Below are positions 27,701 through 36,700 of a stretch of DNA of 64,000 nt, piece by piece. Position 1 is the first letter of the stretch; each line of letters opens with the position of its first letter. The stretch comes from Laetmonice hystrix (Eukaryota): assembly GCA_965235115.1 (NCBI GenBank), contig OZ249439.1:7440001-7504000 (forward strand), given 5' to 3'. The position numbers were made by a program.

Positions 27701-30700
27701 AACGCACCACATTTACAGCACTTTACAAACCAGTAAAACCCCTGTCGATCTGTGGGTGTATTTCCCTGACGAGGGGTCATTTTGAGCTGGGCCATTGAGA
27801 CGTGGTAGGGGCATGGGGCGTGTACTACTGAGGTTGTGTTTAGTTGAATATGGTTTGGATTTAGAGCAGGCTTTTACACCTCAGCAACAGTGAGGATTAT
27901 ATTACTGAGGTAGTCACTTTTATTGGTGAAGGGAGTACCTGGGGAAAACACCAACCTTGCAGCAAGTCCTGATCTCACGTCCAGCCTGAAGGAGATTTGA
28001 ACCCATGTGGGGTGTGGTTTCTATTGGGTGGACTTACCTGAGGCGGGCGTAGCGTTGGGTGGGGCCATCGAAGTGTCCATCGGCTGCCCTCCGTCACTGC
28101 TGATGTCATGGATGGTGGATTGGGGCGAAGTGTTCGGGTCTTGAGCTTGGTAAGCCGGTGGTGGTGTGTCGGCTGAGGACAAATAATCATCTGTAACAGG
28201 TGGCAGCATTTGTTTCTACAACTCCCTGTCCTTCAGCTGATCACTCAGGCCAAACCAGGTCATTCAATCGGTATCCAGAAAATGTCAGTACTACTTTGAG
28301 ACAACTTTTTCATCCACTGCACAAGCATCATATTCAAATCACAATAAATGTTTATGCTGAAAAAAAAGTATTCATGAAGTGAAATGAAAGAGGACAAAGG
28401 ACCTAAGGCTAAGAGTGTCTAAGCAGTAACATATTTATAGATTTCTCGTCACATGGAGCAGGAAGTTGTATTTACCTGGGTGTCCGAAGGGACTGCCTGG
28501 GCCTGAGTTGTTGTTGGACTGTTGGAAGCCATGTGGATAGGACACATTGTAGGGCATGGATGGCTCTTGGACCTGCTGGAATGGCGCCAGGCCATGCGGG
28601 ACAGAACCACTCGGATATTCGCTGTATCGCGGCACCAAAACTGGCGGCAACACTGTAAAAAACAGCAATTACACATCATACATGTATAACCAGTTTTAGA
28701 TTTACCAACATCATACAACCAATTTTAGATAATTAACAACATCATACAAGCATTCCCAACATCATACAACTGTTACTAACTCACTTACAATTTACTGCTC
28801 TATTTCATGTACAACTTTTCTCTTTCCAGACATTCTGATAATAACTGAGTTACGCCTGGTGACTGTGCATCTATAAAAAAATCACAAAATTAGCCAGTGC
28901 TAGGATGACCTTAACAGTGGAAATTCCATAGAAATCATGTGTAGCTCTATCTAGGAAAGCATGGATTCCATCAATTATCTCAAAAGATAAAAGATGTGGG
29001 GGGGGGGGGGGTTCTTTGTCCTGCTCGACCACCAAAGCTTCCTTTATAGAGTGACAGCAGCCGATTGGGGAGTAATCTTGGGGCCGGGGCTTTATTTCAT
29101 GTTTATAACCTCCAAAGGTTATTTTCCTTTCTGCCCGTTTCACCCACTCAGGCTCCTGATCCCGCTGAACTAGTCTATGATCAACTGGCCCATGTTCCTC
29201 ATCCAACTATTTCCAAACTTGTCTCATGATGGTCAATGCATCATTAGTTGCCTTACTAAGCAACGTTAATGAAGTTGTTGTGAAAGTGCCTTGGGCCGAA
29301 CCTAGCGCCACCTAGAGGGATGAGGCTCACCTAGTCAGTATATCCCCATATCGCGCCCTCTGGCGGATCGTGTAAATCGGCCGCCTCAGTTTGGCCCCAG
29401 AAGGGTAGAATCTATATAAGCCTGGGTTTCCCGCGATAACGAGAGAGTTGTTGCAAGTTTGTCGTCCTGTGAGGAGCCCCACGCGGTTACCTTACAGGCC
29501 GATATTGCAATCCTCGGCCTATGCCGCCATAGCCCAGTGACCATTGGTCTACTGTGCTGGCCTAGTAGGCCCTCGCTAACCCAGAGCGTTTAACCGCCTC
29601 CACCTACTCGGTCGCCCGGGCTACTGTCGGGTGACGACCGGTATTTGGTAGGCTTTATACCTGACGACCGCCCCTAGTCCTATCGGACTCCGTTTAGTGA
29701 CTAGGGAAACACTGACCACGGACTACGACATTGGTTACGGACCAAACACATTGACCACGGACTGACCCTGATATTGACCCCGGCAACAACCACGGACCAT
29801 CCCTGTGATACGAAATATACCCACTCCAGTGGCAGGCCCGACATAGTCGACAAGCAGGCCGCTACGGTAAGTGTATTTCTATCGTGCCAGTGGAAAGCCC
29901 ACGGCTATCCCGAACCGTGCTGTAGTGACACGGCCCAATTGCACTACAATTGGTGTCAGAAGTAAAGTAACTGGCACGACAGTTATTAGTGAAACCACAG
30001 TTTCACTACAATTGGTGTCAGAAGTAAACTAACTGACACGGTAGTTGAAACCACAGTTTCACTACACGTAGTTGAAACCACGACACTCACTAATTGGTAG
30101 AGTCGACGGCACACTCCTACTACAGTAGTGAGTGAAAAACGTGCGGCATTGCCAGCGCTTAGATTTCCCGCGCAGAGCAGCACGCAGACGTTTGGCTGCA
30201 CTCTAGATCTATTTGTGTTTACTCTTTCACATCTCCGTTTTCAGCATAGTCAATTGTTTGAAGCGGGGGGGGAGGTTGTGTAGAGTTTAACTTGTAGATT
30301 TGTCCAATTTGGTCAAAGTTGTGATTTGCACCAGTACACGTGCACCCATTCACACGCCACTCAGTACCTCTCGTGTGCGCGGTGAAGCGCGACGGTGGGC
30401 CAACTTGAGTGTTGACCGAGCTTATTGATTAGCCTAATATTGCTGAACTGTATTTTTGCTCGTACTACGTATTTGTGCATCTATACTAGCTTCACATAAT
30501 TACAGCGTAAGTTAAGCCTAACTTCGCAGTAACTAGGGCTACTCACTAAAAGTGACATAGAGGTGACGATTTGCATACGCATAGCGACTGATATGTGACT
30601 GGTGAGTGGTGCCACATATAGCCCCACTCTGCCAGACCACCGGTGCGTTCGTTCCCTGCTATAGAATAGTGGTATAGGAGCATAAACTGTGCATTCTCTG

Positions 30701-33700: not shown

Positions 33701-36700
33701 TATCTGCCCTGAGATAACAACTAGTCGCACTATGTATCCACTCCTATTGTTTTCTGGATGTAGCAATTTCCAAATGACTGTTCCAGACACCCCGTTCAGT
33801 CAACAGGTAAGCTGTCCCACTTTCACATCTATGTATTTGCAAGGAAACATCGAAGAGACTCGATGGTGCTGGGAGGGGGTGTTGTTGTGAAAGTGCCTTG
33901 GGCCGAACCTAGCGCCACCTAGAGGGATGAGGCTCACCTAGTCAGTATATCCCCATATCGCGCCCTCTGGCGGATCGTGTAAATCGGCCGCCTCAGTTTG
34001 GCCCCAGAAGGGTAGAATCTATATAAGCCTGGGTTTCCCGCGATAACGAGAGAGTTGTTGCAAGTTTGTCGTCCTGTGAGGAGCCCCACGCGGTTACCTT
34101 ACAGGCCGATATTGCAATCCTCGGCCTATGCCGCCATAGCCCAGTGACCATTGGTCTACTGTGCTGGCCTAGTAGGCCCTCGCTAACCCAGAGCGTTTAA
34201 CCGCCTCCACCTACTCGGTCGCCCGGGCTACTGTCGGGTGACGACCGGTATTTGGTAGGCTTTATACCTGACGACCGCCCCTAGTCCTATCGGACTCCGT
34301 TTAGTGACTAGGGAAACACTGACCACGGACTACGACATTGGTTACGGACCAAACACATTGACCACGGACTGACCCTGATATTGACCCCGGCAACAACCAC
34401 GGACCATCCCTGTGATACGAAATATACCCACTCCAGTGGCAGGCCCGACATAGTCGACAAGCAGGCCGCTACGGTAAGTGTATTTCTATCGGGAACCAGT
34501 CAAACCGTCACACGGCCAAACCGTCACCTGTGACGGTTTGACCGTTTCGTTTTGAGCAGATGTGACGGTTTGACTTTGCTTCCTGGGTCCAGAGCCCGGA
34601 CAAGACCCGGCCCCCGGCCGGCCGTGTGGTCGCTGCCGCGTACGCCAGTCAAACCGTCACACAGGCAGGGCAGCAACCGAGGCCGGCGAGGGCTGCCATA
34701 CCCCCTACCCGGCCGGGCTGCTGAGGCTGGGGGCGGAATACACGGCGTATGATTCTCGGCAATTGTTTAAAAGATTATATAGATCCGCCTAGCCATATCC
34801 CGCTCTCTACCGACCGGCTGAGGCCCCTGCTTCAACAAGCCCAGGCCGAACCGACCGGCCGAGGCCCCCTACAACTTAGTACAAGCCCCGGCAGCGAGCG
34901 AGCGGCCGGCGGTCCCGCGGCAGCTTGAGCGAGTAAGCGAGCGGGCGAGTGACCGGCCACCGCTCCCTCGCTCACCCCGGGCAGGCGGCTCGGCGGCCCT
35001 CCAAGGGGCTCATTATGACGAGATTATTTCGCCGCGGGCTCAAGTGATGTGATACCGGGGGGCGATGGTAGACAGTTCATAATATTCGCGGCTAAAACGG
35101 CCAATGTAGCCAGGATAAACTAATCTTGTGGTAGGTAGGGCCAAGGCGTATACATACTATAGCTGGGCCCACTCTATTAGGAATATCTAGCGAGGGTGAG
35201 GGTGAGACTTCGAGGCCACAGGATGGCAGTGATGATGTGACGGTCTGACCACCGGGGACTCGCCTGCCTGTGACGATCTGACTGTGACGGTTTGACTTTC
35301 ACCGTGTGACGGTTCGGCCATGTGACGATTTGACTGGTATTCTTTCTATCGTGCCAGTGGAAAGCCCACGGCTATCCCGAACCGTGCTGTAGTGACACGG
35401 CCCAATTGCACTACAAAATGAACAAGAAAAAAAAATTATTTGGCCAATTATTTCTGTTTTGATACTGGAACCCTGGGCAGATTGAATACCCCCAGGGCAA
35501 TTTGTTTTATAAATGGTGTGCTTGGTGTGTCCACAGGCGCATCCTGTTCAGGCTGCCAGTTTCTCCGACACACTGTTGTGACCAAATCCCAGCTGGACCG
35601 GTGGCCGACCTATTTAATTTTCTTTAATTGTCCTTTGTCATGCAATTAAGCTGTGTTTTACGAGGCACACAAAGAAGTGGATTAGGAAGCAGAAAAAGGT
35701 GCACTTCTTGAGACACTTAGAGTGAGACTTTACAAGTTTAATTTCATCTTTTCATAAATTAATTTAGCCGAATTCTATATATCTCTCCCCACTATTAGTA
35801 CATGCATCCCCCCCTTTACAGTAACTTTGATGGCACCATATGTGGGGAGGCCACTGGCTGGTTGGGAGGGGGCGGGGGGGGGGGGGGCTGGGTGGTGACT
35901 CAGCCCCTATCACACCCTCTGTCACACTTGCCCCTAGGGACTCTCCCCCAGTACCGGCCCCACTACCCTGCTATGCCACCTTCCCAGAGCCAAACCTCAT
36001 ACCACGGGTCCCATTTGTCAGAAGGTGTCAATCTTAATGTTTCATTCATGACGCATCATGTCAGACAGGTCCAGTCCTCCCTTTATCCGGCTGGCGTGCC
36101 CTCATTCTCAACACTCTGCTCACTCTGGCAATATTCTAACTGTGAGGAGTCCTTCTTTATTGACCAGATGTTAGCCATGGACAACCGCCTGAAAAAATTG
36201 TCATCGGCTCTGTCCCTAAAATGGCTAATACTAGTGGAAGTCATGAAGTTACAGTTTTCACTCTCCCACAACGTCAACATGACAATTTTTGTTTCTCTTT
36301 CAGAAAAGAGTTGTACAATCTTTTAAAAATGTTTTGGTCTGCCACGGTTATAAAAAGTTAAAAAGAGTCCAAATTTGCAGAGCCCGTAGAGATGGCCGGT
36401 ATGGGCGAGAATGTATTGTCATACAAGGGTTATCATGTATCTCCTAGCCACTCCCATTATACACCGGACAGGCAGACAAAGAAATGGATTACTCTACTAC
36501 TAGTGCACTTGCCAAACAGCAGGTCGAGTTGACCAGTACTACACCAACCGTGGCGACTAGTCATCATCTGTCACTGCCCACCACTCAGTGATGGTCAAAC
36601 CTTTTGTCATACAGGTCAGCCCACTGCCACCACAGTGTCTTATGACCTTTAACCTCATCTGAACTGAGCTTGGGCTGAGGTAGTAGGCATGTCCACAAGC

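What the first reader, a model, noticed from the sequence alone, without database searches (positions are those of the whole stretch)
29276..35415. Young gag-only LTR retroelement with no pol, inside a Smad1 intron
Seen: LTRs with no mismatch found by eye, PBS and PPT present, an intact 553-aa Gag, a 1.6-kb leader, and only about 650 bp between gag and the PPT with no protease, RT or integrase motifs. Known: gag-only non-autonomous elements (TR-GAG type) are described mainly from plants and need pol in trans. Inference: an active animal lineage that keeps its own capsid while borrowing pol, or a recent single internal deletion. It makes up over half of the 11.4-kb intron and may be polymorphic.
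Basis: partly seen in the sequence, partly recalled or inferred. Interest (0 to 1): 0.65.

Follow-up and report, generated by a model that had tools for sequence, protein, structure and literature searches.

The report
Gag-only LTR retrotransposon in Smad intron
A recently inserted retrovirus-like mobile element that still encodes its capsid protein but no copying enzymes sits in an intron of an animal Smad gene; it is a tidy example of a known kind of parasitic element and not a new kind.

Summary
Window 29274-35416 (+) is an LTR retroelement with a 6-bp target duplication. Its two LTRs share 676 bp with 0 differences. It has a TGG-type primer site, a purine tract, a 1,617-bp leader and one open 553-codon gag with a Ty3/gypsy-type capsid domain (Pfam Retrotrans_gag, above cut-off). 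The 652 bp after gag show no trace of protease, RT or integrase. The element fills 54% of an 11,368-bp intron of a BMP-type R-Smad gene and lies antisense to it.

The 3' LTR is 1,536 bp because an 851-bp TIR DNA transposon with a 9-bp target duplication landed in it later. The gag zinc knuckle is incomplete. The LTR end plus primer site is tandemly duplicated.

The best reading is a non-autonomous, deletion-derived element that depends on pol from a partner. Whether it belongs to an amplifying gag-only lineage or is a one-off deletion cannot be decided, because no host-genome or protein-database search was open. Gag-only LTR elements are already described in animals: zebrafish BHIKHARI-1/-2 and chicken ENS-1. 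I rate it a new member of a known kind, of modest interest.

The parts
29268..29273 (+). left copy of the 6-bp target-site duplication AATGAA
   Evidence: Read. The script prints both host flanks.
29274..29949 (+). 5' LTR, 676 bp, with TATATAA at 29413-29419 and no AATAAA
   Evidence: Searches show 100% identity to the matching parts of the 3' LTR. TATA was read. The AATAAA scan is.
29951..29968 (+). PBS-like stretch that starts with TGG 1 nt after the LTR; its 3' limit is uncertain and the tRNA is not identified
   Evidence: Read. There is no tRNA gene in the window to compare with.
29942..30066 (+). 62-bp tandem repeat, 2.1 copies, that repeats the last 8 nt of the LTR plus the PBS-like stretch
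   Evidence: 86% matches. family D1 (35 nt, 89%).
29950..31566 (+). untranslated leader, 1,617 bp, AT-rich just before gag
   Evidence: One search gives 39/31/40 stops in the three frames. One search gives GC of about 0.30 at 31100-31550. No Pfam family was found in the open frames scanned: 2 of the 7 frames of 35 aa or more, and one ORF.
31567..33228 (+). gag, 553 codons plus stop, open throughout. Layout: N-terminal long helix, Pro-rich middle, capsid domain, coiled segment, incomplete zinc knuckle
   Evidence: ORF. (Pfam). (Atlas look-alikes are Ty3/gypsy Gag, PNMA and zf-CCHC clusters). (helix at residues 11-107 with pLDDT above 90).
32470..32739 (+). capsid domain, Gag residues 302-391, Pfam PF03732 Retrotrans_gag
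   Evidence: 28.8 bits against a cut-off of 24.1, E 1.5e-6. One search, on residues 270-450 alone: 32.9 bits, E 8e-8.
33166..33204 (+). partial zinc-knuckle match, Gag residues 534-546, model positions 2-14 of 18
   Evidence: 16.0 bits; 17.9 bits. Both are below the Pfam cut-off of 20.8.
33229..33880 (+). 3' internal region, 652 bp, non-coding, with no pol remnant
   Evidence: stop counts and shuffles. (0 families at E<=10). One search's error message counted 15 stops in one frame of 33100-33879.
33871..33879 (+). polypurine tract GGGAGGGGG
   Evidence: Read.
33881..35416 (+). 3' LTR, 1,536 bp: the same 676 bp as the 5' LTR, interrupted by a nested insertion
34492..35342 (.). nested 851-bp non-autonomous TIR DNA transposon. 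It has a 9-bp target duplication TTTCTATCG (34483-34491 and 35343-35351), 33-nt imperfect terminal inverted repeats and many subterminal repeats of a 17-nt motif
   Evidence: I1, 91% complementary; D1, 9 copies. (target duplication). (7 of 7 motif matches lie inside it; chance expectation 0.17). No ORF of 80 aa or more lies inside it.
35417..35422 (+). right copy of the target-site duplication AATGAA
28653..40020 (-). host intron, 11,368 bp, of a BMP-type R-Smad gene. It lies between the MH1-coding exon, which ends at 40021, and the first linker exon, 28652-28476
   Evidence: Searches show the GT and AG signals and frame continuity across the junction, read without joining the exons. One search places MH1 in 39989-40492(-) and the MH2 end in 23919-24338(-). 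One search places the MH2 start in 24477-24752(-). Searches give the PDB matches.

Best explanation
This is one copy of a non-autonomous LTR retrotransposon with a Ty3/gypsy-type Gag.

Shown:
- Two LTRs identical over their 676 shared bases, and a 6-bp target duplication.
- A TGG-type primer site next to the 5' LTR and a purine tract next to the 3' LTR.
- A long untranslated leader and one open gag.
- No protease, RT, RNase H or integrase.
- Antisense position in a Smad intron.
- A later hit by an 851-bp DNA transposon in the 3' LTR.

Inferred mechanism: the 5' LTR drives a genomic RNA that is translated into Gag. Reverse transcription and integration are done by pol proteins of a related autonomous element in the same genome. 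Those proteins recognise the primer site, the purine tract and the LTR ends.

Inferred history: pol was lost by an internal deletion. The incomplete zinc knuckle at the end of gag fits such a junction. Most likely the copy was already without pol when it integrated. Count of damage: gag has 0 stops and 0 frameshifts and one incomplete C-terminal motif; pol is absent altogether.
For: Anatomy.

Gag type: Pfam Retrotrans_gag above cut-off. Atlas look-alikes are Retrotrans_gag/Ty3_capsid and PNMA/zf-CCHC clusters, with scores of 0.90-0.92. Shared features are 173-175 of 256 for the top three with residues 270-553.

No pol: 0 Pfam families in 8 of 11 open frames of the 3' region at E<=10, and open-frame lengths as in shuffles.

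Recency: 0 of 676 LTR positions differ. The 95% bound on divergence is 0.0044, which is under about 0.2-2.2 My for assumed rates of 1e-8 to 1e-9 per site per year.

A second large event (loss of all of pol) in that short time is less parsimonious than integration of an already shortened RNA. This last point is inference.

The region around the primer site folds better than all 200 shuffles (-81.6 kcal/mol, z -5.1). A 13-nt U5-leader stem encloses the LTR end and the primer site, as expected of a working leader.
Against: - Only one copy could be seen, so trans-mobilisation is inferred and not observed.
- One post-integration event did occur within the same short time (the nested transposon), so a post-integration deletion is not far-fetched.
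- The knuckle is incomplete, which may weaken RNA handling by this Gag.
- The tRNA for the primer site was not identified (one search found no tRNA gene in the window).
- No relatives of Gag could be fetched, so there is no test of selection on gag.
- Structure models were too poor to confirm a capsid fold (mean pLDDT 48.7 and 48.8).
- Assignment to Ty3/gypsy rests on gag alone.
Confidence: 0.6

Rival explanations
1. An autonomous element integrated here and lost pol afterwards by a single chromosomal deletion. On this reading the copy never moved without pol and is a dead end.
For: The locus did suffer another event after integration, the 851-bp insertion in the 3' LTR. The incomplete knuckle at the end of gag fits a deletion junction. 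No second copy with the same junction was seen, though only this 64-kb window could be searched.
Against: With 0 of 676 LTR differences there was little time. The deletion would have to remove all of protease, RT, RNase H and integrase, leave no remnant detectable by Pfam, and still spare nearly all of gag and the purine tract.
Confidence: 0.25
2. Assembly artefact: pol is present in the real chromosome and was dropped when reads from related copies were collapsed.
For: Young multi-copy elements are a classic place for assembly collapse (general knowledge). Nothing in the window tests this.
Against: The window has no N and no gap. The LTRs, target duplications, gag ORF and nested insert with its own target duplication are all mutually consistent. 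A collapse would not be expected to leave an ORF that closes neatly followed by 652 bp of unique non-coding sequence.
Confidence: 0.05
3. The gag is kept because it serves the host, as reported for zebrafish BHIKHARI Gag, and not only as a parasite's capsid.
For: The 553-codon ORF is open, while 30 and 26 stops fall in its other two frames. A precedent exists in PMC12067270 (passages).
Against: The LTRs are identical, so the copy is too young for the open frame to say anything about selection. There are no expression data and no orthologous copies to compare.
Confidence: 0.05

Closest known systems
TR-GAG elements of plants (Chaparro et al. 2015, PMC4350172; abstract and passages read)
   Same: LTRs with the usual cis features and a single ORF for Gag, with no pol. 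Mobility is presumed to be in trans. Some TR-GAG Gags are Gypsy-like.
   Different: TR-GAGs are defined as shorter than 4 kb and come from plants. [quoted passage not shown] The authors' HMM scan found no candidate in Drosophila. This element is 5,283 bp without its nested insert, has a 1.6-kb leader, and sits in an animal gene.
BHIKHARI-1 and BHIKHARI-2 of zebrafish (PMC12067270; passages read)
   Same: Animal LTR elements that encode gag but neither pol nor env. They have very similar young copies and an assumed partner that supplies pol.
   Different: The paper treats these as endogenous retroviruses. The Gag here matches the retrotransposon family PF03732 and no retroviral Gag family. Copy number and polymorphism are known for them and unknown here.
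ENS-1 / ERNI of chicken (as described in PMC12067270)
   Same: A non-autonomous variant of an autonomous LTR element (ENS-3) that still expresses a Gag-derived protein.
   Different: It has ERV-L-like retroviral ancestry, and the autonomous partner is known.
LARD and TRIM non-autonomous LTR elements (definitions as quoted in PMC4350172 and PMC3286476)
   Same: LTRs, primer site and purine tract are kept and pol is missing. Mobilised in trans.
   Different: They have no coding capacity at all. This element keeps an open gag.
Mouse ETn/MusD and IAP deletion subtypes (recalled, from no call)
   Same: Deletion derivatives of LTR elements that spread using the proteins of full-length relatives.
   Different: They are retroviral-type elements. 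ETn has no gag. This comparison was not tested here.

Membership tests
LTR retrotransposon (structural definition) | two direct long terminal repeats | tested here: met
   All 676 bases of the 5' LTR recur in the 3' LTR with 0 differences.
LTR retrotransposon (structural definition) | short target-site duplication directly outside the LTRs | tested here: met
   AATGAA on both sides.
LTR retrotransposon (structural definition) | LTR ends TG...CA | tested here: inconclusive
   TG at 29276 and CA at 35415 exist. However, the repeat and the target duplication place the ends 2 nt and 1 nt further out, giving GT...AA.
LTR retrotransposon (structural definition) | primer binding site complementary to a tRNA 3' end next to the 5' LTR | tested here: inconclusive
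   TGG starts 1 nt after the LTR. No tRNA gene in the window and no tRNA library at hand, so the primer is not identified.
LTR retrotransposon (structural definition) | polypurine tract next to the 3' LTR | tested here: met
   GGGAGGGGG ends 1 nt before the LTR.
Ty3/gypsy (Metaviridae) | Gag with a Retrotrans_gag / Ty3-type capsid domain | tested here: met
   PF03732 at 28.8 and 32.9 bits against a cut-off of 24.1. Atlas look-alikes point the same way. That PF03732 marks Ty3/gypsy and not copia Gag is recalled knowledge.
Ty3/gypsy (Metaviridae) | CCHC zinc knuckle in nucleocapsid | tested here: inconclusive
   The match is partial (model positions 2-14 of 18), at 16.0 and 17.9 bits, below the cut-off of 20.8.
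Ty3/gypsy (Metaviridae) | pol with the order PR-RT-RH-IN and an RT that groups with the family | tested here: not met
   No pol domain anywhere between the LTRs. Superfamily assignment therefore rests on gag alone.
TR-GAG | LTR element whose only ORF encodes Gag | tested here: met
TR-GAG | length under 4 kb (abstract of PMC4350172) | tested here: not met
   6,143 bp as it stands, and 5,283 bp without the nested insert and its duplicated 9 bp.
TR-GAG | multi-copy family with signs of activity | not testable with these tools
   No host-genome collection was open. There is no second copy in the window.
BHIKHARI-type gag-only endogenous retroviruses | gag but neither pol nor env between the LTRs | tested here: met
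BHIKHARI-type gag-only endogenous retroviruses | retroviral ancestry of Gag | tested here: not met
   No retroviral Gag family in Pfam at E<=1 for the whole Gag or at E<=10 for its three parts. The match is to the retrotransposon family PF03732.
LARD / TRIM | no coding capacity | tested here: not met
   There is an open 553-codon gag.
non-autonomous TIR DNA transposon (the nested insert) | terminal inverted repeats, a target duplication and no transposase ORF | tested here: met
   33-nt TIR at 91%, a 9-bp duplication and no ORF of 80 aa or more inside. The superfamily was not determined.

The most novel reading that the evidence does not exclude
This copy is a member of a living, amplifying gag-only lineage of Ty3/gypsy ancestry in an animal. 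That would be an animal counterpart of plant TR-GAGs: it builds particles from its own capsid protein and takes reverse transcriptase and integrase from a partner family. Its long leader and its duplicated primer site would then be lineage-specific adaptations.
Probability: 0.35. Interest if true: 0.55.

Novelty: new member of a known kind. Interest (0 to 1): 0.32.

Why it matters
If copies with the same junction are spread through the host genome, this would be a clean animal case of a retrotransposon that keeps its capsid but outsources its enzymes. It could be used to ask, from sequence and expression data, why gag is retained by such parasites, and to set it beside plant TR-GAGs and zebrafish BHIKHARI.

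As a single copy it matters mainly for annotation. The element is a 6.1-kb, probably polymorphic, antisense insertion filling half of an intron of a key BMP-pathway gene. The locus also shows that two transposon classes were active very recently in this genome.

Tried and rejected
- **Pol remnants.** Pfam found no families in 8 of the 11 open frames of 25 aa or more in the 3' region, nor in 2 of the 7 leader frames of 35 aa or more (E<=10). It also found none in 5 minus-strand frames (E<=1). The other 5 leader frames (35-49 aa) were not scanned.
- **Frameshift at the end of gag.** I read the other two frames there and saw no continuation of a knuckle.
- **PDB by sequence.** The whole Gag gave 3 hits at E 0.45-0.94, none Gag-like. 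The capsid part gave 0 hits at E<=10.
- **Structure.** The two AlphaFold runs, made without an alignment, gave mean pLDDT of 48.7 and 48.8. Only an N-terminal helix (residues 11-107) was confident. I did not run fold search, because matches to such models would be meaningless.
- **Relatives elsewhere.** A Gag scan of genome contigs gave 134 pattern matches and 0 confirmed. A 25-nt LTR-end/primer-site pattern gave 0 matches. That collection holds prokaryotes only, so this says nothing about the host.
- **Other copies in the window.** There are no copies of the element or of the nested insert elsewhere in the window.
- **RNA families.** There were 0 Rfam matches at gathering score. The two matches inside the element at E<=1 are far below threshold. 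No tRNA genes were found.
- **Self-priming.** No inverted repeat links the primer site to the LTR downstream of the TATA box.
- **TG...CA as the LTR ends.** Rejected in favour of ends set by the target duplication.
- **Literature.** I found no description of a Ty3/gypsy-type gag-only LTR family in animals. Searches were 15 papers, the 14 listed all on plants by title; 10; 9; 104, of which 20 were listed; 18. The one insect paper proved irrelevant when read. These searches cover open-access text only.
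Full report
**1. What is there**

Self-comparison shows that 29274-29884 equals 33881-34491 (611 bp, 100%). It also shows that 29876-29949 equals 35343-35416 (74 bp, 100%). The two blocks overlap by 9 bp in the 5' copy.
- The 5' LTR is therefore 676 bp (29274-29949).
- The 3' LTR is 1,536 bp (33881-35416). It is the same 676 bp with 0 differences plus 860 extra bases.
- AATGAA lies directly outside both ends (29268-29273 and 35417-35422).
- A stretch starting with TGG follows the 5' LTR after 1 nt.
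- GGGAGGGGG ends 1 nt before the 3' LTR.
- The LTR has TATATAA at 29413-29419 and no AATAAA. Of the 91 AATAAA matches in the window, 2 lie inside the element: 31192 (+) and 31469 (-).

**2. The extra bases in the 3' LTR**

They are a nested insertion at 34492-35342 (851 bp).
- It is flanked by a 9-bp duplication, TTTCTATCG, that occurs once in the 5' LTR.
- It has 33-nt terminal inverted repeats that are 91% complementary, and 9 in-register copies of a 17-nt subterminal motif.
- With up to 3 mismatches the motif occurs 7 times in the window, all inside the insert. Chance expectation is 0.17.
- No ORF of 80 aa or more lies in it.

It is a non-autonomous TIR DNA transposon that arrived after the retroelement. 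I did not determine its superfamily. Because it sits 65 bp from the 3' end of the 3' LTR, it may lie beyond the end of the element's transcript. That is inference only.

**3. Coding content**

The only long frame is gag, ATG 31567 to stop 33228. It has 553 codons and no internal stop, while the other two frames carry 30 and 26 stops.
- Pfam gives Retrotrans_gag (PF03732) at residues 302-391: 28.8 bits against a cut-off of 24.1, and 32.9 bits, E 8e-8, on residues 270-450 alone.
- A zinc-knuckle match at residues 534-546 covers only model positions 2-14 of 18. It stays below the cut-off (16.0 and 17.9 bits against 20.8).
- The first 269 residues match no family. They are Glu/Arg-rich and then Pro-rich. 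The model gives one long confident helix at residues 11-107.
- ESM Atlas look-alikes are Retrotrans_gag/Ty3_capsid clusters and PNMA/zf-CCHC clusters, at 0.90-0.92. For residues 270-553 the top three share 173-175 of 256 features. This is a lead that agrees with Pfam.
- PDB sequence searches gave nothing useful.
- Both structure models were poor for lack of an alignment (mean pLDDT 48.7 and 48.8). I ran no fold search.

**4. No pol**

The 652 bp from the gag stop to the 3' LTR carry 14, 14 and 8 stops in the three frames. The longest open stretch is 64 codons, equal to the median (65) of 1,000 shuffles.
- Eight of the 11 open frames of 25 aa or more in that region gave 0 Pfam families at E<=10. 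The three left out were the gag frame itself, a 43-aa frame overlapping gag, and a 25-aa frame.
- The other two frames at the end of gag do not continue a knuckle.
- The leader (1,617 bp; 39, 31 and 40 stops) gave no family in the frames scanned: 2 of the 7 frames of 35 aa or more, and one ORF.
- Five minus-strand frames gave none.

Damage count: gag has 0 stops, 0 frameshifts and one incomplete C-terminal motif. Pol is wholly absent.

**5. Leader**

A 62-bp unit is repeated 2.1 times at 29942-30066. It repeats the last 8 nt of the LTR together with the primer-site-like stretch (family D1, 89%).

A 13-nt stem (29879-29891 with 29970-29982, 92%) brackets the LTR end and the primer site. The RNA fold of 29860-30100 is -81.6 kcal/mol, against -58.6 +/- 4.5 for shuffles (z -5.1, with 0 of 200 shuffles as stable). 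This is a single-sequence prediction, so it is a lead and not proof.

**6. Host gene**

I searched the exons one by one and did not join them. Whole-protein orthology (Smad1 against Smad5 or Smad9) therefore stays open.
- MH1 (Pfam E 4e-43, model 2-103 of 103) lies in 39989-40492 on the minus strand.
- MH2 model positions 1-66 lie in 24477-24752(-). Positions 63-174 lie in 23919-24338(-).
- Two linker-like open frames lie at 28438-28668(-) and 28024-28215(-). They match no Pfam family.
- The MH1 exon ends at 40021, followed by GT. The next exon starts at 28652, preceded by AG. The reading frame carries across the junction.
- The intron is 28653-40020, 11,368 bp. The element is 54% of it and runs antisense to the gene.
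- The best PDB chains are a SMAD5 MH1 (5x6g_A, 282 bits) and a SMAD1 MH2 (1khu_A, 300 bits). By my count from the printed alignments, 121 of 133 and 126 of 134 positions are identical.

It is a BMP-type R-Smad. I do not take the window for human: the exons differ from these chains, and the intron holds a zero-divergence LTR element and a fresh DNA transposon. The window has no N.

**7. Age**

With 0 of 676 LTR differences, the 95% upper bound on LTR divergence is 0.0044. That corresponds to under about 2.2 My at 1e-9 per site per year, or 0.22 My at 1e-8. The host's rate is unknown, so these are brackets only. The nested insert in one LTR shows that no conversion between the LTRs has covered that site since.

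**8. Interpretation**

Shown: a structurally complete, very young LTR element that encodes Gag and nothing else.

Inferred: it depends on pol proteins of a related autonomous element, and it descends from a pol-bearing ancestor by internal deletion.
- I favour (0.6) that it was already without pol when it integrated. Removal of all of pol after integration, within the time in which no LTR base changed, needs a second rare event.
- The in-situ deletion rival (0.25) is kept alive by the fact that one later event, the nested insertion, did happen.
- An assembly fault (0.05) cannot be tested without reads.
- Whether the shortened form is a family or arose in the very replication round that made this copy is open.

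**9. Comparison with what is known**

- TR-GAGs are defined in plants as LTR elements under 4 kb with gag as the only ORF. The authors' scan found no candidate in Drosophila (PMC4350172; abstract and passages). This element meets the coding criterion but not the size criterion (5,283 bp without the insert).
- Animal precedents exist. Zebrafish BHIKHARI-1 and -2 encode gag but neither pol nor env, are young and are insertionally polymorphic. Chicken ENS-1 is a non-autonomous variant of ENS-3 (PMC12067270; passages). The paper treats all of these as endogenous retroviruses, whereas the Gag here is of the retrotransposon (PF03732) type.
- A Culex element, 'CM-gag', said to contain only a gag gene, I saw only as a title in the reference list of PMC3286476.
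- I found no paper describing a Ty3/gypsy-type gag-only LTR family in animals. These cover open-access full text only.

**10. What stayed unchecked**

The one open collection holds prokaryote genomes and gave nothing. As a result there are no relatives of Gag, no alignment, no dN/dS, no copy count, no partner element, no polymorphism test and no identification of the primer tRNA.

**11. Verdict**

I rate it a new member of a known kind, with interest 0.32.

Noticed in passing
window 34492-35342: An 851-bp GC-rich TIR element with a 9-bp target duplication sits inside the 3' LTR. It is packed with a 17-nt subterminal motif (7 matches, none elsewhere in the window). It shows that a DNA transposon family was active in this genome after the retroelement arrived.
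   Followed up: partly
window 29942-30066: A 62-bp tandem duplication repeats the last 8 nt of the LTR plus the primer-site-like stretch, so the leader carries a second, 89%-identical copy of the primer site. Its origin and use are unexplained.
   Followed up: partly
window 29879-29891 with 29970-29982: A 13-nt stem between U5 and the leader encloses the LTR end and the primer site. The 241-nt region folds with z -5.1 against shuffles.
   Followed up: partly
window 55606-57240 (+): A 545-codon uninterrupted open frame with a SAM domain (Pfam SAM_2, E 1.6e-7). It may be a single-exon host gene or part of another element.
   Followed up: no
window 1878-3124; 16129-17136; 11787-12035; 62518-62829: Four minisatellite arrays, with units of 41 bp, 64/124 bp, 17 bp (G-rich) and 35 bp.
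   Followed up: no
window 17723-17794 and 28810-28881: A 72-nt inverted pair, 75% complementary and 11 kb apart. It probably represents two old copies of an interspersed repeat, one of them just upstream of the element.
   Followed up: no
window 35802-36326 (+): A 174-aa ATG ORF 380 bp downstream of the element, with no Pfam family.
   Followed up: partly
window 26341-26389: An A-rich simple repeat that gives 8 overlapping AATAAA matches on the plus strand, inside a Smad intron.
   Followed up: no
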